From the human T2T-CHM13v2.0 reference genome, Homo sapiens, in the NCBI RefSeq assembly GCF_009914755.1, contig NC_060931.1: 64,000 nucleotides of DNA; one strand, written 5' to 3'. A program made the position numbers and the translations under genes. This document shows, one piece after another, positions 1 to 44,021 of this stretch; positions within the stretch are counted from its first letter, which is position 1; every line of letters starts with the position of its first letter. The notes below the pieces were generated by a model. It was not told where the DNA came from. It saw nothing but the letters and a program-made list of their open reading frames with translations, and made no database searches.

Positions 1-2744
1 GAAAATGCATATTATGTCCTTTGTAGATATAGCTTAGGGATATTCCTGATAGTGTCTTCTTTTATTTTCCAAGGACCACTAAAAAGTACTGGGAAAGTTG
101 AAGTAATATAAATTAATCAGAAATGAAAATGTGCTTTATACATTTAGTTAAACACACAGGCAAGGAACTGATACTTTTGTGCCAGAGTCATTTCAAGTCA
201 TAGGTTTTGTCCTTTATTATATATTCCATGTGCTAGGAATGAAGGAGCTTGTTGGAGAGCAGGAAATGTCCTTTCTTGGGGTCACAGAGGCCCAAGTTAA
301 AATCTAGGCTCTGCCGATTATTTGTTGTGTCAATGCCCCCAAGTTAACATGGCATTCCTATCCCCCAAGTTAAGTTTCTGAAATGCTGTTTTAACCTTAA
401 TCTGATATTGATCTGCTGACGAATTAAATTTCTCTATTCCTACATTTATTTTTCTTTATGTATAAATCCACACTTGCAATTTTATGTATTTAACATCCTC
501 AATTTCCTCATCAGGAAACTGGCATCAGCTATCAGATAAAATTGTTATAGGGATTACATGAGATGATGAAGGTGAACCTATAACACTTGGTACAATTTAG
601 GTACTAAGCATGGCAATGTTTTCTCTAGGGGAAAAATTTCAACTGGTTACTTCCCAGTGAGAACTGGCAGAAGTATGTAACTTCATAGAAAACACACACC
701 TCAGTTGTACTTCAGTTTCATCTATGGGTAACCATGCTGCACAAGAGAAGTATGGCCAAAGGCCAGTTAGTCTGTAAACATCACAGTTGAGATAAGGACT
801 GGTTACTTACCATCTTTGCATCCATATAAATAAAAGCCTCACAAGCATGTTTTAGGGGATCACTTATTTAATTCAGATTTCTCCTATTTGGATTTCTCCA
901 TTTTGTCACCAGAAATAGCCTATGGGTATCGTCCTCTAGGTGGTACAGAACAAAAAGAAACAAAAACACTCAGCTGAAACCTTCCTCCCAGCTAAGAAGT
1001 CATCAAGTGAAAAGAAATGTTCAAAAGAAGCCCTCAGGAAAGAGACTATGCAAATATGAATAGGAAAAAACTAGACTTCTGTCTATGGTATATGTTTCCA
1101 AGTTATCCTCCAGCTGATTACTTGGGCTAGTACAAACCATAAATTTACCCAAAGAAAATGATGACAGCATGATGCAAAATTACAGGTCCACTGACTATAC
1201 CCTACTTTTCTGGGTGATGGGCTGATCCTGTGTAATAAACACTCATATTACATTCCACAGTCGAGTACTATAGGTAGAGATTATTCACCATTGGTTTGAG
1301 TTTAGGCTTGAAGGAATAAATATGTAATCATATGGCAGGGAAAGGAACATGTAACTTTTCCTCTCTTATCACAGAAACTGCCATTTTGCTTTGGAGTTTA
1401 CAGATTACACAGAAGTCACCTAATCTTTACTGAAAACATTTACCTCTGGAAAAGGTCGACATTTTGATACAGGACAAACACTGTCACTAACCTTGGCACT
1501 AGACTTTAAATATTTTCCACCAAATATCAATAATATCAGTAATAAGTTTCATTTCTCATGAGGCCAGCTATTGACCATCTTAGGTATGCTTGACCCAAAT
1601 GAACTTGATGTAAGCAGAATCTCAGATTTGTTGCCTCAACCTTAGATTCTACATTTATTTACTTAGAAGTGTTTTCTACTTAATCCTAACATCAAATCTC
1701 ACCTTCAAGTAACAGTTGATAAATTACATATGTGGCCTATTATATGTTATTTTAGTAATGAAACTGTTCTGTTCTCCATGTAGAAATCATCAATTTTCTG
1801 ACAAGTTTTCTTAAAATGTAAGTCAAAGAAAAGGGTATAATTCATTCCCAGAGCAGAAAATAATACTAGATTCTAGATGAACTTAAGTATCTTCCAATTA
1901 AACATTCTAAGCCTAGGAATAAGCATCAAATTTCTCCGTCTTTTTTACTTCCATGGTACCACATCTCTACATGACTCTGATGAATTTTGCATCTTCATGT
2001 GACCATGCATATGCAAAGAGTGATTGAGTGGACAGATAATTTTCTCAACTCTTCCAAACACAGGATGCCTTGATCTATAGTTCCAAAGCCATGGCTCATT
2101 AATTAGCACAGTTCTGCATAGCACATTGCTGCCAAACCAGTTAGCAGCCAGATAAAGAGATGCAAAGCTCAACTTCTGTGGCATTTTGTGTTTCCCTCCC
2201 ATTCCTCAAAAAAGATAAGGACTAGAAGTAATGAATAAATAGGTTAAAAAGACAAATAAAAGCTAATTTCACTTTACAAGGTTTATGTTTATGATCTTTT
2301 CTTCTCCCAGTGGTTTTCTTAGCTTGGCTAGGATATGCCATGTTACATTAGTAACTATCAGTTAAAAAAAATAAATTGACTCCTAATCTGTCTGTCATAA
2401 ATAAGACTCCCTGCTCATGCATGCTCTGAGAATGAGAACTAAATTTACTGTCGTCTTGCCCTTTCAGCAGATTACTCATGGAGGCATAAGTAGGTATACA
2501 CAGAATACAAGGAAATGTCCTATTCAGAGTAAAAGTCTGAACTTTATTGCGTATATCAGGAAGCAATTGTATATGTACCTGATGCCTGTGGAATCCTAAC
2601 TTTTGTTTAGGATTAAGGAAAGAAGTGGACCTCAATCTTTATTAAAGAAGCCAGATGATCATGACAGTTGGATTGTAGAGCCCAGTGTGTCTCAGTCTTC
2701 TGGCAAACTTCTGTAAATAAACAGGCACACAGAGCTAGATGTTC

Positions 2745-3078
2745 TCTTGTCACTTAAACTGCAATTCCTATCAGTGGGTGCTGAAGTCTTAAAATGACTT
2801 ATATTTTATTAAATAGAATACTGGTAATACAGTCTTTTTTCAATTGGTGATAATAAGCAATAGGTGATAATAAGCAATAGGTCAATCAAAGACAGTTCTT
2901 TAAAAATAACAGCAAATATATTAGAATAGAAAGGTAAAGAAAGGAAAAAACATCAGAGTGCGTCATATACAATAATGCTTTTATTTGTTGAAAATTTAAG
3001 TTAAATATGTGTCTGTACATTGGGTCACAATTTTAAAACTATTTGTTAATGAAGGTCACAGTCAAAAAATGTTTGCAG
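2745..3078. mobile_element. Degenerate hAT-Charlie-type element
   Basis: catcagagtgcgtc...ttgggtcaca...ggtcacagtcaaaaaatgtttg resembles Charlie-family ends; family uncertain. Confidence 0.4.
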
Positions 3079-3164
3079 GAAAACGATGTTTTCAAGGCAC
3101 TTGTAGTAAGTGATGTAATAATCTTGCAGCATTTAAACCTCTAAATGTGTTAATAAAATAATAG

Positions 3165-3440
3165 TATAATAAATTAATTATAAAAGTGTTTAAAAGTATG
3201 TGCTATGTGCTAGGCAATGTTCATAGTGAATTATATGTATTTTATCAATCAGTCCTCACATTAACCCTATGACATGTGTATTTTTAAATTTTACGCTCTG
3301 TGTTTTAAATTTTAAAGTGTGTGCTCTGTGCCAGGCAACAGTCATTATGAATCATATGTATTTTGTCAATTAATCTTCACCTTAACCCTATGACACACGT
3401 ATTTTTACTTTCCATTTTGTATAGATTGAGCTACTGAGAC
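3165..3440 (-). mobile_element. MIR with internal tandem duplication
   Basis: ctatgtgctaggcaatg...cctcacattaaccctatga...ccattttgtatagattgagctactgag. Confidence 0.6.
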
Positions 3441-6400
3441 ATTTCTCAGGAGCTCTTGTAATAATATTTTGATTGAGTTAGTGTAAAATAATGCATGATT
3501 TCATAAGTGAATAAATGATTCTGACTCTTCATCTATTAGAACACAGCTAGTAGTGTTAGAATTAGCCACCTTTCTCACCCTTGTTTTCTTAAGGAAACAC
3601 AGAAAGCATCTTCTTAATTAAAAAGTACCCTAAGAAAAAAAGCAGTTTTCCAAAATTATAGTCAAACTATGGGAATATTTTCAGTTAATAGAAGCATTTG
3701 ACTAAATTTTCCAGAAAACACAGCATACACAAAATACTCTTTCTCCTTATTCTCTCTATTGATGTTTCTCTTCCCATTTAGCTCTTTTCTACCAAATTTA
3801 AGGAATTCCAAGATTGCAAACCACAATAGATTGTTCAGTGTGGCCATTGGAAAAGGCATGTCAAGGTTAGCTGAGTAAATCCAGGAATAATCAAATAAAA
3901 AAGAAGGCACAGGAGAACAAACATTTATTTTCTCTCACACTGGGCTGTACATATTTGGCGAAGTGGCTTCCATGGTTCTCTCCTTCTTTATAGCGAAGGG
4001 TTATTTGTGTTGAATAACAACTCTTCCAGGTCAGTAAAAGTTGGATCAGGAATTGAACATACTCATTGTTCAAGAAACAAACAAACAGAAAGAATAACTA
4101 GGTGTGAAAGAAGTGGATAATTATACTGAAGTTTACCAATTAAATTCCATGTAGAAAAATCATATTGTTTTCCTCTGAAAGCTGAGAAACACATTATTAC
4201 ATTACAATGAAGTTTCATTTGTGAGGGAATGAAGATTCAAAGATCTCCTTGGAAATGGAGATTCCAAGTTTATACATGGAAGACTATTCTACAAGGATAC
4301 TCCAAAACTTAGTATTTGTAAATTAAATAGTACAATAGCAATTCTAAAATATGCAGGAAAAAAATGAAGAATGCCTAAAAATAATTTTAATGCCTCTCTT
4401 TCTAAATGGTTTTACTCAACTTAATTAACTGCTAACAAGTGTTTAAACTAGTTAGAAATAGATATATATGAAACATAACTCATATACACACAACCTGCTG
4501 TTAAGATTTTTTCTTTCCTTCTTTCTGTCTCTCAAAGCAATAGAATTTTGATTTGAGAATTATATATTTTGTATAGATTCTTGTTTAAAATGGAATTCTA
4601 TTTTTGCTTAAAAAATGTCTAACTTTTGCTGCTTACCTAAGCTACAGCGTTATTTGAATTAGAGATATTTGGATTTAATATTTCTGCAGAAGCCCAGACC
4701 CCCATCCTTATTTCACTGGAAATAAAAAACCACAAGGGTCTATTTTCCCTCCTTAATCCTCATCCCTGAACTTTCCAGAGGGATGAAAAACAGTAAATGA
4801 TGGACGCTTTATTACATGAAAGCCAGTTTGTAAATATCAAAAGGCAAATCAAATTTCTCTTTGTTCTGCAACCATAGAAAGACAGCAACATTTTCATTAA
4901 GGTACGAAATAAAAATCTGGGAGAAACCCATATACCTTAGAGTGATCTAAATTGAAATACTAAGATTCTAGAAAGAGGAGAACCCATCAGGACTTGATAA
5001 CGATGTCAGTGAGAGAGCAGAGAGGAACATTCCTGACAGACCTCTCAATTAGAACACTAAGTTAACATCAATACTACTTACCCTTCTTTCTAGCCATACC
5101 TCCTGCCTTTTCCATTTTTTCCCTAAAATTCTTGCTGTCTTACAATATGTCACATGCTTCCACACACAAGGATTTGCACATGGCATTCCTTCTGCCTGGA
5201 ATATTCTTCCTCCAACTCTCTCCACCCATCTTGAATGCCCCTGTGACTGTTCTAGTCCCCAGGTGCCATGTCTAATTCATATCTGGTGAGCACATAGCAG
5301 GTGATGATAATGAAGTAGAGATTAATAGGTAAACAGGAAATTACAATGTAGGGATTCAAGGACAATGATGGGAACACACAGAATGTCATGGGCATCCTGC
5401 CCAACCCTGCTCTGTGGTCCTGGCAGACATCCACATTCCTTTAAGCCACAGATTCCTGCTTCCCTACTTTATTGTTCCTACTTTATTGTTCTTGGTTCTA
5501 GGCTTTGGTAACTTGGAACTCAGCTCTGACCCTGGAAAACTTTTCTCACTAAATTCTTCAGTGAAATAATCAGACAATCCAATAGACTATACAAGTAGGG
5601 GTTTTTTTAAATCTTTATATGCCTCATGTTATTCAATTCTTCTTATTGCCATTCATCTATATCACCACTGCTTGCCTATGGCATTCTCTATACTGGTTCC
5701 TGTTCCTCTATTTCTTCCTTACTCCAATGCCTTATGTATATGGCTGTCCTATTTGTCTTTCTGAAGAAAAAATCTTATTACATTGCTTTTATACTACTAC
5801 TACTAAGAAAAACAGAAAAAGCGTATGTAATACAAACGTAAGACAATTACAAAAACACAGAACCCAGAAAACAAAAGCACAAAAATACCCTGAGTGGTAA
5901 CGAATACCCTTTATGAAATAGAACCACCTTTCTCACCTTACATTCTATTATTCCTATCATAAACTCCTCAAATCTCTTCCTTCTGAAAACAGCTCACTTC
6001 CCCAAGAGTTCCATTTGCTAATTCTTTTTCGTAGTAATGTGATAAGAGAGAAAGCTAACATTTATTAACACTGATCGTTTGCAAATATAGTGCTAATTGA
6101 CTTTATGTACTGAGATCCACACTTGACTGATTCAAAGGTCTGATTGCAGGAACGCTATGAAAGCAATAAAGGTGATAGTCTCAGGCAGAGGTGGGTGTGT
6201 GAAAGACGGCCTCCTCGCAGAGGCTAGACTCTAGCCCGTCCTTTGAATAACCACATGCACTGGGATTCTCCCTTAAGTGATCTGTGCTTTTCCTTTTCTT
6301 GAGGAACTTCCTCTGCTCCTGTTACAGCACATTTTGTTTCTCTATCCTTCTATTTCTACATGGTGGGACTTCCATTATAAGTGCATTCCTACCTCTCCTC

Positions 6401-37350: not shown

Positions 37351-37887
37351 GAGATAAAACCATTCCCCGATTATCAAAGTTTGTTCTTGAAAACTCTTCT
37401 TAGGGAAAAGTATTAAAGCAGTCTAAAAAGTATTTGTCACAAAAATTGTTAGTATTTAAATAATGGAATATTTTAAAGATACATGTATATATTCTCAATA
37501 TTTCGGTAATTTAAACCTTATTCACCCTTCCCCTAAAAAACCCTCAGAACAAAGTCAAGAGACATCATGAAAAGTCACATAAATGGTGTACAAGATTATT
37601 AAAGCTATAAACTTCCAAACTATGTACAAACTATCATCAGAGTCAACCTCATAATTCACAGGACTTCTTTTTCAGAAACCAAGACGTGCTATTAAAGGTA
37701 CTAAAATATAAATCTTTTACTTTTAAAAATATTTTCTTATAAAATGAAATAGGGCAATAGTGATATACGAATAACAATACAAACTTATAAATTATTTTAA
37801 AAAGTCTCTTTGGAGTCGCACGTTGTTATAGTAAAATAAATCATAATACTTTGTTAATGTGATATATTTATTGATCATAAGATTTTT

Positions 37888-38317
37888 TGCAGTTTATAGC
37901 TGCAGCGAACACCGGGAATGAAGTATACAGACAATTCCAGCTGAGCGGGGAGGGGAGCAGCTCCTCTGAGAGAGTGTCACCCCAAGATCCGTCCACCAAA
38001 TATTATTGAGAGAGCTTGTTTAAACTACAATTCAAACAAACAAGAGACATCCACCAGGTGGCGATTTGTGGTCCGGTCATGAGGCACATATGGCCCATAT
38101 GGCCTTGCTTATTAATCTAAAAGCACTTAGATCACATTCTCCTGAGGCTGTTTTCAGTGCTCCTTATCACACATTCTGCTCCTTGCCCTGTTTTCAGGGT
38201 CAAGGAGTTTCAGTCTTATGTACAAACAACATGCACACAGTGCCTCAGTATTTTTCCATGCCCCAACCTCAAATGCCTTGTACATAAGCTTGAATATATT
38301 GCTGTGCACCCCCCACA
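37888..38317 (-). mobile_element. 3' LTR of provirus (MER95-like by recollection)
   Basis: Copy of 40914-41335 with about 40 substitutions and a 9-bp duplication (catatggcc x2, 38087-38104). Directly preceded on the minus strand by the PPT. Confidence 0.9.
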
Positions 38318-38332
38318 TATCTCCCCCTTAAT
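38318..38332 (-). promoter_or_regulatory. Polypurine tract of provirus
   Basis: Minus strand ATTAAGGGGGAGATA directly abutting TGTGGG of the 3' LTR. Confidence 0.85.
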
Positions 38333-40213
38333 TCTTAGAGCATGTTGGTTATCTAATGCAAGGTAAGCTTCTATCATTCTTCCCTAGTCATAAATGTGTT
38401 GGGTGGCAGCACAGAGCTATTTGTAGATGTCTAGCAAACAGATATAAAAAAGAATAAGTATAGCGGCCATCACCCAAATGTGTATGTTTGACTCAGACAA
38501 CCAAGTATTTGGGTTTAACAATTAAAAGTCTTCTTGTAATTGCTGAAGGGTATTTGTTTATAATTACTGTGACCATTCTTCATGTTGTTTCTTTAACTTG
38601 CACTCAAGAGTGGAAACTTGAGAAGATAGGTGGTCGTGATAAGTCCCTTGTAGGTATGCTTTCACTCTCTTCCAAGCATACCGGGAGCTATCATATGGCA
38701 AAGGTGTAACACAGATAGAATTATATTGCCAATCACAATGTAAATTTTGATGAGTAATGAATGCCTGTGGTTGATCTCCTAGCCATTCAACGGCGCTTCA
38801 AGGGCCTCTAGGTGAGACAAAATACTCTTATCAATGTTTACTTGTTCTTGAAATTCATGGGTTACATTGCATAGCATGTGGTTCACCACTGAGGCTGTAT
38901 GAACAGATTCTGTCAAACAGATAGCTGTAGTAGTGGCAGTTGTTAATATAATAATAGCTGAGACTAAAAAGGCAATTAAAGTGGCCAGAATTTTTTTTTT
39001 TTTTTTTGAGTATGAGACAGTGCTTTTCTAAATAACTGCAGGGTGGAATCCCTTCCCAGTTCCTGGTAAAATTTACAGGGAGCCACAATTCTGTATGCCA
39101 TTTTAAGATTATGACATAGGTTATATTTAACTGTATAATATTTCGATGAGACAAGCATGTAGCATACCAACGACTGGAAGAGACTATAAAAGGATTATTA
39201 ATTACTAATTATTATTAATACTATAAAAGATTGATTCTGCTGTATGTTAGGAACACCTTGCCCAAACAGAAGTATATAGGGGTGCGTAGTACAAATCAGG
39301 ACGGTATCAGTAACATTATTGTGCAAGCAGAGGGTATAGTTGTCACTGCTATTAGTGTAATCATCATGTGAAAGAATTCGTTCGAAAAAAGGAAGTCCTA
39401 GTCTCCAAATTCAGGTATGAGCAGGGCTTAAAGCTTGTTCCCTTTTTTAATTGTAACATTGGTCCTGAAAGCTCATATTCTGACCAAGTGATGGCAATAT
39501 TGGAGGGACTGCCAAACCCAATAGTCTGATTTGCAGACACGAGATTACCATGGGGACCCCAATCAAGTAAGGTGCCATTATCAAACAGAGGCCCCTGACG
39601 TGGCGCAGGTTGTCTGCACGGGGACTACTGGATGGCCTCAAACTTATATGGCCAGTCTCTACTCAGACAGCATATAGGAAGATCCGGCACTTGTACAACT
39701 TCATTAGAGACCTCAGTAAGACTAGTCTAACGGCAGAAATAAAGGACAAATTTGCAAGCTTAGCATCCCTTTTGGGCTGATAGTAAAGATACTCCTGAGG
39801 AATGACAGTAATACACTTATTGTGAGTAATTGTGGAAAAACAAGTCAGGGGATTACTAGACAATAGAGTCAAAGAGTCACTGAGTTTAATCTATCCTAAA
39901 TTTCAGTTAAGGGGTAAGACAAGGGCATCCATCTACCTCCTGTCCAAGAAGTATCATTAGATGACAAAGGCGGGTCTGCATCCCACCACATAATCACATT
40001 AAAAACAGGGGGATTCAGAACATGACTCCAATAAACATGTTCTTGAGCTGAGTCCACCTGGCAAAGAACAAGAAATACCAGCCACCCCAACACCCATGTC
40101 TTTCTTACTTTCTCAGAAGCTTTCCCAATGACCGCCAGATACATAAGAAACTGGTTCTGTGCAGCTGCAGGGGCTCCCCTGGCCGTAAGCCGGATAGTTG
40201 TCTGTTGGTCCAA
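38330..40213 (-). pseudogene. Degenerate, near full-length betaretrovirus-type env (signal peptide-SU-TM)
   Basis: YWSHVLNPPVFNVIMWWDADPPLSSNDTSW (HERV-K [30 protein letters not shown]); GTLLDWGPHG (GTIIDWAPRG); LWLPVNFTRNWEG (VWIPVSMDRPWEA); hydrophobic fusion peptide; CDWQYNSIC CX7C loop at 38711-38737 (CDWNTSDFC); LNPNTW plus membrane span. Multiple stops and frameshifts. Confidence 0.9.
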
Positions 40214-40770
40214 CAGATGCAGGTCTTCTTAAGGGTGGAGGAAAAGAGGGCAATGGCTTTTCTATTAGGGGAGGAAAAGAGGGCAATGGCTTTTCTATTA
40301 GGGGAGGAAAAGGCTGCACTCTGTCCTCATCAACACTAGAAAAAGTGTCTTCTTTATGCCCTACTGAATGGAATGAAGTGGGGGGAGGAGCCCCTCCCTG
40401 TTGTTCTGGTTCCTGCATTCTCTTCCCCTTTAAATTTTCTGAATTACCTTCAGGTGAAGAAAATGGGCGCTCTGACTCACCATGATCTGGCATATAAAGA
40501 GAGTACAACGCAGAGTGTACCAGAGTCCAGGTGGTCAAAATGGTAACATTAGTAAAATGACCCTGCTCAAATCTTCTTTGCAGGCAGTGACCCACCTGAT
40601 CCCATAACTCCTAGTCTAATCTTGATCAGAGAAACAAGGGCATTCCTGTCAAATTAAAAATGTAAGCTTATGCAAAGTTTTAGACTTTACGGTACACTGG
40701 ATAGCCTTAAGTAATTGTTGCACCGTTTAAAAAAAAAAACTTTCTGCTCTTTGGTCAATTTCTGACCCAG
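40214..40770 (-). pseudogene. Degenerate gag 5' part (beta-type matrix p10 plus proline-rich spacer), truncated before capsid
   Basis: (M>L)GQKLTKEQKVFF/KTVQQLLKAIQCTVKSKTLHKLTFLI*QECPCF...LWDQVGHCLQRRFEQGHFTNVTILTTWTLVHSAL parallels the MPMV/HERV-K matrix (MGQ...CPWF...W..VG..L...W..I). Start codon is CTG; frameshifts and a stop present. Confidence 0.85.
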
Positions 40771-40866
40771 GATAACCCAACCCCTGGTATTATATGAATC
40801 GGTCCCATCCTCCTGAAATGGGTCGGGACTGTCCCTTACTGACACTCCCCAAAGACTGATGAGTTT

Positions 40867-40872
40867 ACTTAC
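40867..40872 (-). promoter_or_regulatory. Probable proviral major splice donor
   Basis: GA|GTAAGT on the minus strand in the leader between PBS and gag, the usual position. Confidence 0.55.
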
Positions 40873-40892
40873 TCCACACATAATTTTAAGGC

Positions 40893-40911
40893 AATCATGT
40901 CAGGGTAACCA
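40893..40911 (-). promoter_or_regulatory. Primer-binding site, tRNA-Trp type
   Basis: Minus strand TGGTTACCCTGACATGATT, 2 nt after the LTR end. Matches the complement of the tRNA-Trp(CCA) 3' end, TGGTGACCCCGACGTGATT, at 16/19. Two of the three mismatches are CpG-type transitions. Confidence 0.8.
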
Positions 40912-40913
40912 CT

Positions 40914-41335
40914 TGCAGCTTATAGCTGCAGCGAACGCTGAGAATGAAGTACTCAAACAATTTCAGCTGAGCAGGGTGGGGAGCAGCTCCTCTGAGAGAG
41001 TGTTGCCCCAAGATCTGTCCATCAAATATTTATTGAGAGAGCTTGTTTAAACTACAATTCAGACAAACAAGAGACATCCACCAGCTGGCGATTTCTGGTC
41101 AGATCATGAGGCACCTATGACCTTGTTTACTACATATAAAAGCACTCAGACCACATTCTCAGGAGGCTGTTTTCAAGGCTCCTTATCACACATTCCGTTC
41201 CTTGCCCTGTTTTCAGGGTCGAGGAGTTTCAGTCTCATGCACAAACAACATGCACACAGTGCCTCAGTATTTTTCCATGCCTCGACATCAAATGCCTTGT
41301 ACATAAGCTTGAATATGTTCCTGTGCACCCCCACA
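40914..41335 (-). mobile_element. 5' LTR of provirus (MER95-like by recollection)
   Basis: Minus strand begins TGTGGGGGTGCACAGG and ends GCTATAAGCTGCA. Contains AATAAA (plus-strand TTTATT near 41030). About 90% identical to 37888-38317 by eye. Confidence 0.9.
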
Positions 41336-41609
41336 TTTTTCTTCTCATTTTTCTACAATTTATACTTTTCTACTTCTTCATTCCAATTAAACTGAAAGCA
41401 ATATCAGTCCTTTTTGGGCAATGCAAGATCATTTTTAGTACATAATTTTTGATAATTGTTCATTTAGGGAAGAATCCACTGATGCAACTGTTACTAGAGA
41501 TAAGATTATTTTATAGAGTGTGATATTAAGATCAATTTTGATTATTTTATAACATAAATTTTAGTACCTCTAGGGCTAATGATTCAACGTTTAGAAGTTT
41601 CTAAAGACC

Positions 41610-43240: not shown

Positions 43241-43751
43241 AGTAACGGAAGTGAGAACTCGAGGTAAGAGGATGTTATGATTGTACAAAGTTCTTGGGTT
43301 TAACAGCCTGCACCACAATGGAGAGGAAAATTCACTGAAGTGACATTGTGGAGCCATACATGGGACTTAGTAATTGGTAGATTAAAGGGAAGGAAGCAGA
43401 GAAAATACATCCTTTTAAGCCTTAGAAAATATTATAATTGAAGAAATTACATGTTTACTACCTGACCACTTTTAGCATGAATCTTTCTTCTGCTTCTTGT
43501 CAAGATGGTCCCCTTGGAAAGCGCTTTTCTTAATGTACTTTTATTTCTGCTTTTATGATTTAGGTCATGCAATTATTCTTGCCTCACAGTTTTTCTATTT
43601 AAACAAATTCTTGTTATTCTTCAAAATCTGTACAAGTGCAATCTTTTAAAAAACTTTCTATTTCAATTGTAATGGCCATATAATGTATTTCCTAGGACAT
43701 GGTTGATTTCAACATACAATGTAGTTCCTTTTTTGCCATCTTTGATGTTTT

Positions 43752-44021
43752 CTAAATGTATTATATAGTTTATGTTGAGTAAAAAATGTTTTATTCCTTA
43801 GGCATAAGAATATAATAATAGAACTATATATTGACAATACGCAGACACTGACACCAACAACACAAATTATATACATGATCAGTGGTTCTCTAACTGTATT
43901 ATATAGTTTATGTTGAGTAAAAAAAAGTTTATTCCTTAGGCGTAAGAATATAATAATAGAACTATATATTGACAATACGCAGACACTAACAACACAAATT
44001 ATATACATGATCAGTGGTTCT
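43752..44021 (+). repeat. Direct tandem duplication, 138 + 132 bp
   Basis: 43752-43889 and 43890-44021 are nearly identical apart from a 6-bp indel and a few substitutions. Confidence 0.95.

What the first reader, a model, noticed from the sequence alone, without database searches (positions are those of the whole stretch)
40893..40913. tRNA-Trp primer-binding site on a betaretrovirus-like genome
Seen: TGGTTACCCTGACATGATT 2 nt after the 5' LTR, 16/19 to the tRNA-Trp complement and a poor match to tRNA-Lys PBSs (TGGCGCCCGAACAGGGAC, TGGCGCCCAACGTGGGGC). Established: HERV-K/betaretroviruses mostly prime with tRNA-Lys (HML-5 with Met). Trp priming is typical of avian alpharetroviruses and gave the gamma-like HERV-W its name. 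Inference: an unusual primer for a primate class II ERV, supporting an independent lineage.
Basis: partly seen in the sequence, partly recalled or inferred. Interest (0 to 1): 0.75.

Follow-up and report, generated by a model that had tools for sequence, protein, structure and literature searches.

The report
Tryptophan-tRNA primer site, unclassified HERV-K-like provirus
A dead, internally deleted retrovirus fossil in a THSD7A intron belongs to a small betaretrovirus-like family that was primed by tryptophan tRNA instead of the lysine tRNA usual for its relatives, which is a modest taxonomic curiosity rather than a new mechanism.

Summary
On the minus strand, 2 nt after a 422-nt LTR, sits TGGTTACCCTGACATGAT (40911..40894). 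It matches the 3' end (+CCA) of human tRNA-Trp(CCA) genes at 15 of 18 positions. Two of the three differences are CpG-type transitions. It is the only site in the window within 3 mismatches (0 of 100 shuffles). Fifteen of 15 related LTR/PBS junctions elsewhere in the genome are Trp-type, and three are exact (18/18). The best other tRNA in a 72-sequence panel reaches 12/18 against the window copy and 14/18 against the intact copies.

The element is a 3.4-kb deleted provirus (LTR, gag fragment, env, LTR; LTR divergence 0.10) of a low-copy class II family. Fuller copies carry Gag_p10, two zinc knuckles, dUTPase, protease, RT, RNase H, integrase and a GP41-type TM. Its RNase H-integrase is at most 46% identical to any other human ERV. 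One published survey lists three members as "HML8?" or "Unclassifiable" and mistypes their PBS.

The Trp primer is not unique to this family. Two canonical HML-5 proviruses, a group described in print as Met-primed, carry the same PBS. Repbase/Dfam naming could not be checked.

Verdict: interpretation supported, moderately interesting, and a variant of ordinary retroviral tRNA priming.

The parts
40914..41335 (-). 5' LTR (422 nt, TGTGGGGG...GCTGCA); AATAAA at 41034-41029
   Evidence: Direct repeat with 37888-38317; 420 aligned columns, K2P 0.103. Genome search with it gave 46 first-look candidates and 43 matches.
40912..40913 (-). 2-nt spacer (AG) between U5 end and PBS
   Evidence: The spacer reads AG in 14 and AA in 1 (L026) of the 15 related junctions.
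40894..40911 (-). Primer-binding site, decayed complement of the 3' 18 nt of tRNA-Trp(CCA): 15/18
   Evidence: It differs at PBS positions 5, 10 and 14. Positions 10 and 14 are CpG-transition type.
40213..40893 (-). Leader and 5' part of gag (MA and Pro-rich region), frameshifted; gag start codon lost (40770-40768); 33-nt tandem duplication near 40245-40310
   Evidence: Aligns to L031 638-1817. The relatives' corresponding ORFs hit Pfam Gag_p10. Translation.
40205..40220 (-). Approximate junction of a ~2.9-kb internal deletion (rest of gag, pro, RT, RNase H, most of IN) relative to the chrX full-length relative
   Evidence: provirus positions 6-919 and 941-1131 align to L031 638-1817, and positions 1125-3447 align to L031 4744-7019.
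38331..40212 (-). End of pol and env (SU + TM), with many stops
   Evidence: 82.6% identical over 2348 nt to L031 4744-7019. ORF list.
38564..39027 (-). env TM region, Pfam GP41 (PF00517) type
   Evidence: E 8.4e-11 (38564-38797) and 0.0034 (38779-39027).
38320..38329 (-). Polypurine tract AAGGGGGAGA, 2 nt before the 3' LTR
   Evidence: Read.
37888..38317 (-). 3' LTR (430 nt); polyA hexamer altered
41336..41340 (-). Possible target-site duplication AAAAA (partner 37883-37887); ambiguous because it is low-complexity
   Evidence: flanks...GAAAAA|LTR and LTR|AAAAAT.

Best explanation
The site is the primer-binding site of an ancient, now defective provirus (window 37888-41335, minus strand). The provirus belongs to a low-copy betaretrovirus-like (class II, HERV-K supergroup) family that used host tRNA-Trp(CCA) as its primer.

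Mechanism, from established retrovirology and inferred for this family: the 3'-terminal 18 nt of the tRNA anneal to the PBS, 2 nt downstream of U5, and prime minus-strand strong-stop DNA. The PBS is re-copied from the tRNA at each cycle, so young or well-kept copies mirror the host tRNA exactly.

Shown here:
- Position and sequence of the PBS.
- Exact identity of three relatives' PBS with the human tRNA-Trp 3' end.
- Trp-type PBS in all 15 junctions found, across three LTR-end subtypes.
- Betaretroviral domain content.
- Large sequence distance from every other human ERV group sampled.

Inferred:
- The founding virus already used tRNA-Trp.
- The window copy drifted from it by three substitutions after insertion, some 22-40 Myr ago.
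- The window copy has no function now. It lacks about 2.9 kb of gag-pro-pol, has lost its gag start codon, and its env is full of stops.
For: Anatomy of the window copy:
- LTR pair, AG spacer, PBS and PPT.

PBS is Trp-type:
- The window hit is unique and absent from 100 shuffles.
- Genome search with 301 nt across the junction gave 32 matches. From the 30 loci, 15 junctions reach past the PBS. All 15 score best with tRNA-Trp. The scores: 3 at 18/18, 6 at 16/18, 3 at 15/18 and 3 at 14/18. One of the 14/18 ties with Thr.
- The exact 15-mer occurs 10 times in 3.1 Gb. Five are the 3' ends of tRNA-Trp(cca) genes, 3 are family copies and 2 are chance sites lacking TGG or an LTR.
- Panel of 72 unique tRNA sequences covering 20 anticodons. 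The best non-Trp score is 12/18 for the window copy and 14/18 for the intact copies.

Class II identity:
- Pfam hits are Gag_p10, p24, zf-CCHC, zf-CCHC_5, dUTPase, RVP, RVT_1, RNase_H, Integrase_Zn, rve and GP41.

Separate lineage:
- Family loci are 50-100% identical to the chrX RNase H-IN ORF. The best non-family loci are 46, 46 and 44%.
- The LTR family is small, with 46 candidates.
- Vargiu 2016 Table S1 prints the same PBS strings for the chrX pair and the chr12 copy with score 0 and type 'R'. It labels them 'HML8?' and 'Unclassifiable... [quoted passage not shown]'.
Against: - The window copy itself matches only 15/18.
- One relative (L009) ties with tRNA-Thr(tgt) at 14/18 when the tRNA ends are allowed to slide.
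- The tRNA panel is incomplete. It has no Pro, Val, Asn, Tyr or SeC genes and not all isoacceptors.
- No experiment shows that tRNA-Trp was packaged or used.
- The family's name in Repbase/Dfam could not be looked up, so 'unclassified' rests on one 2016 survey and on the group papers I could read.
- Protein identities come from decayed copies read through stops, and so understate true relatedness.
Confidence: 0.88

Rival explanations
1. The family is an already named Repbase/Dfam entity, for instance a divergent HERVK22 (HML-5) or HERVK11 (HML-8) relative with its own LTR name. Its consensus would already carry this PBS, so nothing here would be new except that nobody remarked on the primer.
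For: - The HML-8 preprint says its three proviruses and the Dfam reference have a 'tryptophan (W) PBS type'.
- Vargiu tagged the chrX pair 'HML8?', and for the chr12 copy the best gag match was hervk11.
- Two canonical HML-5 proviruses carry the same PBS.
- The gag N-terminus is 13 of 23 identical to HML-5.
Against: - The Vargiu similarity image against the RepeatMasker library is empty for the chr12 copy, except for an MST insert.
- The LTR is 422 nt, against 897 nt (MER11D), a 10,485-nt MER11A reference and 587 nt (LTR14C).
- There is no nucleotide similarity to HML-5 LTR, leader or gag-pro beyond 24-53 nt.
- A locus that I map, by coordinate offset only, to a Vargiu HML8 chain is 38% identical in IN.
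- The preprint's reasoning is weak. It cites conservation of TGG and a 'PBS amino acid' logo.
Confidence: 0.35
2. The Trp PBS is secondary. The lineage descends from a Met- or Lys-primed ancestor and switched primer once. A mis-primed cycle copies the new tRNA into the PBS. Alternatively it acquired the U5-PBS region by recombination with a Trp-primed virus.
For: - The nearest known group, HML-5, shows both PBS types. Trp-type strings appear in 2 proviruses, and TGGTG(C/T)CCCG(T/C)GTGAGG-type strings appear after similar LTR ends in at least 3 others.
- The literature calls HML-5 Met-primed.
- PBS heterogeneity within ERV families is documented (Vargiu text; Polavarapu).
Against: - Within this family no copy has any other PBS (15 of 15), across three LTR-end subtypes. 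Any switch therefore predates the family.
- The direction of a switch (Met to Trp, or Trp to Met) cannot be told without a rooted tree.
Confidence: 0.4
3. The PBS belongs to another tRNA (Arg-TCG, Glu or Thr) and only resembles the tRNA-Trp complement after decay.
For: - The window copy begins TGGTTACCCTGAC, which resembles the Glu-type PBS start. Glu(ttc) and Arg(tcg) each reach 12/18.
- One relative ties with Thr at 14/18.
Against: - Three copies are 18/18 to tRNA-Trp, and the best rival reaches 14/18.
- Most differences from Trp across copies are CpG-type transitions.
Confidence: 0.02
4. Chance resemblance with no PBS function.
For: None beyond the 3 mismatches.
Against: - The site is exactly 2 nt after the LTR's terminal CA, starts with TGG and is conserved in 15 copies.
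- 0 of 100 shuffles gave a hit.
- Genome-wide, the 18-mer at 2 or fewer mismatches is rarer (33 sites) than its reversed control (213 sites), and 12 of the 33 lie at ERV LTR ends.
Confidence: 0.01

Closest known systems
HERV-K(HML-5) / HERVK22 with LTR22
   Same: - Class II ERV.
- The best non-family RNase H-IN match (46%, chrX:92.94 Mb) is flanked by LTR ends of the type found on a canonical HML-5 provirus.
- The gag N-terminus is related (13 of 23 identical).
- Vargiu's consensus image shows faint con_hml5 signal.
- Two HML-5 proviruses (chr5:37.34 Mb, chr19:30.27 Mb) have the same Trp-type PBS 2 nt after the LTR.
   Different: - No nucleotide similarity in LTR, leader or NC-dUTPase-PR beyond 24-53 nt.
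- Segment protein identities are 35-58%.
- HML-5 is described as Met-primed, and other HML-5-like LTR ends carry non-Trp strings.
- The HML-5 LTR is abundant (359 first-look candidates) against 46 here.
HERV-K(HML-8) / HERVK11 with MER11A-C
   Same: - Vargiu et al. tentatively wrote 'HML8?' for the chrX pair.
- HERVK11 was the best gag match for the chr12 copy.
- A preprint assigns HML-8 a W-type PBS.
   Different: - The HML-8 reference provirus is 10,485 nt, built as MER11A-HERVK11-MER11A. Here the LTR is 422 nt and the full copy is 6.4 kb.
- The NC zinc-finger strings differ.
- A locus I map to a Vargiu HML8 chain by coordinate offset only is 38% identical in IN.
- I could not read an HML-8 PBS myself.
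Other HML groups (HML-1, -2, -6, -10 Lys-primed; HML-11)
   Same: Same supergroup and domain order.
   Different: - The PBS strings in Vargiu rows are Lys(CTT)-type for an LTR14B/HERVK14 element and Lys3-like for HERVK3/LTR3.
- HML-10 is Lys.
- HML-11 is defined by the 17p13.1 and 8p22 loci, which are not among this family's loci.
- Loci with long pol ORFs that I take (by recall) to be HML-2 are 42-43% identical.
Alpharetroviruses (avian leukosis/sarcoma group), classic tRNA-Trp users (recalled knowledge, not tested)
   Same: Same primer tRNA species. Alpha- and betaretroviruses are sister groups.
   Different: Gag_p10 MA, dUTPase before the protease and a GP41-type TM place this family with betaretrovirus-like ERVs. 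No avian sequence was compared.
HERV-W (named for a supposed Trp PBS)
   Same: The name only.
   Different: The string that Vargiu Table S6 lists as ReTe 'R' / Leipzig 'W CCA' (row 4601) is 18/18 the end of a gene ARAGORN calls tRNA-Arg(tcg) (L089). It matches the Trp(CCA) complement poorly. HERV-W is class I.

Membership tests
Retroviral PBS for tRNA-Trp(CCA) | About 18 nt complementary to the tRNA 3' end including CCA | tested here: met
   Window copy 15/18. Relatives 14-18/18, three of them exact. tRNA identity by ARAGORN on 5 genes.
Retroviral PBS for tRNA-Trp(CCA) | Lies immediately (0-3 nt) downstream of the 5' LTR and starts with TGG | tested here: met
   A 2-nt spacer after the terminal CA in all 15 junctions, reading AG in 14 and AA in 1.
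Retroviral PBS for tRNA-Trp(CCA) | No other host tRNA fits as well | tested here: inconclusive
   Met within a panel of 72 unique tRNA sequences and 20 anticodons (best rival 14/18). Pro, Val, Asn, Tyr, SeC and some isoacceptors were not sampled.
Class II (betaretrovirus-like, ERVK/HERV-K supergroup) | Gag_p10-type MA and two NC zinc knuckles | tested here: met
   PF02337 in three relatives. zf-CCHC and zf-CCHC_5 in the chr12 copy.
Class II (betaretrovirus-like, ERVK/HERV-K supergroup) | dUTPase encoded upstream of the protease | tested here: met
   PF00692 (E 3.5e-20) followed by PF00077 in L034.
Class II (betaretrovirus-like, ERVK/HERV-K supergroup) | GP41-type (non-gamma) TM | tested here: met
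   PF00517 in the window copy and in L031 and L032.
Class II (betaretrovirus-like, ERVK/HERV-K supergroup) | 6-bp target-site duplication | tested here: inconclusive
   The flanks are A-runs. AAAAA matches 5/5, while a 6-mer matches only 4/6 in register.
Class II (betaretrovirus-like, ERVK/HERV-K supergroup) | G-patch at the protease C-terminus | not tested
   No G-patch hit was listed at E<=0.001. No motif search was done.
Class II (betaretrovirus-like, ERVK/HERV-K supergroup) | Lys-tRNA PBS (the historical 'K') | tested here: not met
   Lys(ctt) at most 9/18 and Lys(ttt) at most 11/18.
HML-5 (HERVK22/LTR22) | Nucleotide similarity to the HERVK22 internal sequence and LTR22 | tested here: not met
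   Only 24-53 nt of blastn similarity to 2 kb of two HML-5 proviruses. The whole HML-5 genome was not compared.
HML-5 (HERVK22/LTR22) | Pol clusters with HML-5 | tested here: inconclusive
   The best outside match (46%) is an HML-5-type locus, but HML-2-type loci are at 42-43%. No tree was built.
HML-8 (HERVK11/MER11) | MER11-type LTR and roughly 10-kb genome | tested here: not met
   LTR 422-430 nt. The full chrX copy is 6382 nt. The reference length comes from the preprint.

The most novel reading that the evidence does not exclude
The human genome holds a small, so far unnamed class II ERV lineage of about 14 proviral loci and about 15 solo LTRs. Together with a subset of HML-5 (LTR22B1-type proviruses), it forms the only HERVs with a genuine tRNA-Trp(CCA) primer site. 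If so, primer switching between Met and Trp happened within or at the base of the oldest HML clade. The literature's rule 'class II = Lys, HML-5 = Met' would then be incomplete. 'HERV-W' would be the misnomer, and these elements the true Trp-primed HERVs.
Probability: 0.45. Interest if true: 0.5.

Novelty: new variant of a known kind. Interest (0 to 1): 0.42.

Why it matters
Primer tRNA choice is a lineage marker for retroviruses, and it gave HERV groups their names. A Trp-primed betaretrovirus-like lineage in catarrhine genomes would have four modest consequences.

- It adds a branch that published surveys left as 'unclassifiable'.
- It shows that automated PBS typing mislabelled the site (as R, score 0).
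- It suggests that HML-5 is mixed for primer use.
- It matters a little for PBS-directed host silencing by KRAB zinc-finger proteins or 3' tRNA fragments, since these would need a Trp-specific arm. That last point is speculation.

For the locus itself nothing functional follows. The copy is dead and intronic.

Tried and rejected
Family naming:
- I tried to name the family through the literature. HML-1 is Lys in a Vargiu row. HML-6 is Lys3-like. HML-7 has an 897-nt LTR. HML-8 has a 10.5-kb MER11A reference. HML-9 has a 587-nt LTR and none of its 23 loci matches, except a possible 2.5-kb cross-match at 8q21.13. HML-10 is Lys. HML-11 has other loci. None fits.
- The window locus is not in Vargiu Table S1.
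- Pisano 2019, Flockerzi 2005 and Lavie 2004 are not held.
- Reading HML-8 PBS strings from Vargiu rows failed, because the LTR ends there are mispredicted and the PBS scores are 0.
- The preprint's tables are not in its held text.
- The large protein database search gave only unnamed near-identical fragments and hits of about 40%.

Literature searches:
- The search 7p21.3 + HERV-K found only a nomenclature paper.
- One search was wasted on a loose 'PBS' term.

Sites examined and dropped:
- A minisatellite at chr8:0.80 Mb that hits the Trp 18-mer is unrelated.
- Two exact 15-mer sites are chance.

Limits hit:
- No tRNA gene lies in the window.

Full report
**What is there**

Read on the minus strand, the window holds a short provirus.
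- A 422-nt LTR at 41335..40914 runs TGTGGGGG...GCTGCA.
- It is followed by the dinucleotide AG and the 18-mer TGGTTACCCTGACATGAT (40911..40894).
- About 2.6 kb of internal sequence follows.
- Then come a polypurine tract (38329..38320) and a 430-nt second LTR (38317..37888).

The two LTRs align over 420 columns with 28 transitions and 12 transversions, giving K2P 0.103. That corresponds to 22-40 Myr at 0.0023-0.0013 substitutions per site per Myr. The flanks are A-runs, so the target-site duplication is ambiguous.

**Is it a tRNA-Trp site, and more than chance?**

I took the PBS as it stands in the best-kept relatives (see below) and searched the whole assembly for the other strand of its last 15 nt.
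- There are 10 exact sites, against 5 for the reversed control.
- Five are the last 15 nt of genes that ARAGORN calls tRNA-Trp(cca), on chr6 (2), chr12 and chr17 (2).
- Three are copies of this ERV family.
- Two are chance sites with neither TGG nor an LTR.

The three differences lie at PBS positions 5, 10 and 14. Positions 10 and 14 are CpG-type transitions. The 19th 'match' is likely a decay product, because intact relatives read C there, inside a CpG.

In the window this is the only site within 3 mismatches, and 0 of 100 shuffles gave any.

As a test against rivals I collected 82 ARAGORN calls from loci found with Rfam RF00005 and with PBS-type patterns. They comprise 72 unique sequences, 20 anticodons and 16 amino acids. 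Each 3' end was allowed to slide by several bases, which favours the rivals.
- Trp scores 15/18 for the window copy and 18/18 for the intact copies.
- The best others score 12/18 (Arg-tcg, Glu-ttc) and 14/18 (Arg-tcg) respectively.
- Lys(ttt) reaches at most 11/18, Lys(ctt) at most 9/18 and Met(cat) at most 10/18.

**The multi-copy test**

A 301-nt query spanning the LTR end, PBS and leader found 32 matches. From the 30 loci returned, 15 junctions extend past the PBS. I dropped L015 and L025, which duplicate L016 and L011. I also dropped the loci that match only the LTR end, which are solo or 3' LTRs.
- All 15 junctions have a 2-nt spacer after the terminal CA (AG in 14, AA in 1), followed by a Trp-type 18-mer.
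- The scores are 3 at 18/18 (the chrX pair and chr11), 6 at 16/18, 3 at 15/18 and 3 at 14/18.
- Trp is the best panel match in 15 of 15, with one tie with Thr at 14.
- The chrX pair is a segmental duplicate, with identical IN ORFs. There are therefore at most 14 independent insertions.
- Three LTR-end subtypes share the PBS, so the primer choice predates the family's diversification.

**What kind of virus**

The window copy keeps a gag 5' fragment and env. Its TM hits Pfam GP41 at E 8.4e-11.

Against the 6382-nt chrX copy it lacks about 2.9 kb, covering the rest of gag, pro, RT, RNase H and most of IN. It has also lost its gag start codon, and env is broken by stops.

Fuller relatives carry these domains:
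- Gag_p10, p24, RNase H, integrase Zn and core, and GP41-type TM.
- In the chr12 copy, also two zinc knuckles, dUTPase ahead of the protease, RVP, RVT_1 and RVT_thumb.

This is the betaretrovirus-like (class II) layout.

**How separate is the lineage?**

The LTR is rare, with 46 first-look candidates and 43 matches. That amounts to roughly 14 proviral loci and 15 solo LTRs.

The 388-aa RNase H-IN ORF of the chrX copy was searched against the genome in six frames. Of 2354 candidates, 106 were scored, giving 108 matches.
- It finds the family at 50-100% identity, in 11 loci.
- Next come 46% (chrX:92.94 Mb), 46% (chr12:42.40 Mb) and 44% (chr15:47.65 Mb).
- After that comes a long series at 42-43% with long open frames. 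By recall I take these to be HML-2 loci such as the 7p22.1 pair.

These identities come from decayed copies and so understate relatedness, but the gap is clear.

**Literature**

I saw passages found by term search, one table section, and searches inside supplements, never whole papers.

- Vargiu et al. 2016 (PMC4724089), Table S1, holds three members.
  - The chrX pair (rvnr 5465/5466) is 'noncanonical HML8, comment HML8?'. Its best pol match is an HML6 consensus.
[quoted passage not shown] Its similarity image against the RepeatMasker library is empty except for an MST insert.
  - Their PBS strings are printed but scored 0 and typed 'R'.
  - No other of the 3173 chains has a PBS beginning like the Trp complement, apart from one HERVH string that continues differently.
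  - The window locus itself is not listed.
- The same table shows a Lys(CTT)-type PBS for an LTR14B/HERVK14 element and Lys3-like strings for HERVK3/LTR3.
- The other group papers rule out HML-7 (LTR 897 nt), HML-8 (10,485-nt MER11A reference), HML-9 (LTR 587 nt, locus list), HML-10 (Lys) and HML-11 (17p13.1 and 8p22).
- Polavarapu et al. 2006 state that all class II families are Lys except HERV-K22, which is Met. The words Trp and tryptophan do not occur in the text.
- A search for HML + primer binding site + tryptophan + HERV-K gave 16 papers. Only the HML-8 preprint claims a W-type PBS for a class II group, on weak grounds.
- The 18-mer as a text string occurs in 4 papers, of which 3 are listed. 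None concerns HERVs, judging by title.
- Lavie 2004, Flockerzi 2005 and Pisano 2019 are not held. Repbase and Dfam are not available here. The claim 'undescribed' is therefore limited to these searches.

**An unexpected second case**

A genome-wide search for the 18-mer with up to 2 mismatches gave 33 sites, against 213 for the reversed control:
- 10 sites in 9 family loci
- 2 at tRNA-Trp gene ends
- 1 chance site already seen
- 4 in a chr8 minisatellite that proved unrelated
- 6 in a repeated block at chr5:70-72 Mb (not examined)
- 8 singletons (not examined)
- 2 new ERV sites, at chr19:30.27 Mb and chr5:37.34 Mb

At both new ERV sites the Trp-type 18-mer lies 2 nt after a different LTR's terminal CA. 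A gag start follows about 130 nt downstream.

The chr5 element is a canonical HML-5 provirus. Its second zinc finger, read, occurs once in Vargiu Table S1, in rvnr 1812. That chain is at hg19 chr5:37086510-37094092 and is classified HML5, LTR22B1 + HERVK22. There the PBS was mispredicted from a wrong LTR end.

That LTR type is abundant, with 359 first-look candidates. It also flanks the chrX:92.94 Mb locus, which is the family's best outside IN match.

Other LTR ends of the same general type are followed by different strings of the form TGGTG(C/T)CCCG(T/C)GTGAGG. I did not type these against a tRNA gene. The literature calls HML-5 Met-primed.

HML-5 therefore appears mixed for primer use and is the closest known group. 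Even so, the family shares no nucleotide similarity with 2 kb of HML-5 sequence beyond 24-53 nt. Segment identities at protein level are 35-58%, and the gag N-terminus is 13 of 23 identical.

**Mechanism and verdict**

The site worked as any retroviral PBS does. Host tRNA-Trp annealed by its last 18 nt and primed minus-strand DNA synthesis. Exact copies of the tRNA end in three proviruses are what repeated re-copying from the primer predicts. That step is inferred from general retrovirology and is not shown for this family.

The window copy is a dead fossil in the same orientation as THSD7A, and nothing suggests a present function.

- The 19th base is not an ancestral match.
- Trp priming is not exclusive to this lineage.
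- HERV-W's PBS string is Arg(TCG)-like in this genome.

I rate it a new variant of a known kind (ordinary tRNA priming, unusual primer, poorly catalogued lineage) and of moderate interest.

Noticed in passing
L107 (G000:C19:30273850-30274350) and L108 (G000:C5:37336480-37336980): Two HML-5 proviruses carry a Trp-type PBS 2 nt after the LTR. The chr5 one is canonical HML5, LTR22B1 + HERVK22, in Vargiu Table S1. HML-5 is described in print as Met-primed. Other HML-5-like LTR ends carry a different PBS string.
   Followed up: partly
L089 (G000:C17:75926700-75927100) against Vargiu Table S6 row 4601: The PBS string typed 'R' by RetroTector and 'W CCA' by the Leipzig lookup is 18/18 the end (+CCA) of a gene ARAGORN calls tRNA-Arg(tcg). 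The paper says this string is typical of HERV9 and HERVW chains. It is not the tRNA-Trp(CCA) complement.
   Followed up: partly
L011 (G000:C19:24101656-24104869), around C19:24103348-24103409: In this family copy the 22-nt unit made of the LTR end plus the PBS is present in three tandem copies.
   Followed up: no
G000:C3:188374787-188391551: A family copy is split by a minus-strand provirus with an exact Lys(CTT)-type PBS (C3:188386564) and a long pol frame. This is a nested insertion of a younger HERV-K-type element into the older one.
   Followed up: no
window 40245-40310 (minus strand): There is a 33-nt tandem duplication in the proline-rich part of gag (PPLIEKPLPSF twice). The same region gives repeated alignments in the chrX relative.
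   Followed up: no
window 37888-41335: The provirus lies in the same orientation as THSD7A, inside an intron. The 5' LTR keeps AATAAA (41034-41029), while the 3' LTR hexamer is altered. NCBI's mask does not cover the element.
   Followed up: no
G000:C5:70459694-71695315: Six copies of a near-match to the Trp 18-mer (2 mismatches, starting TAG) lie in a repeated block on chr5.
   Followed up: no
window 43747-43994: A 110-nt direct repeat pair, 93% identical and 138 nt apart, lies outside the provirus.
   Followed up: no
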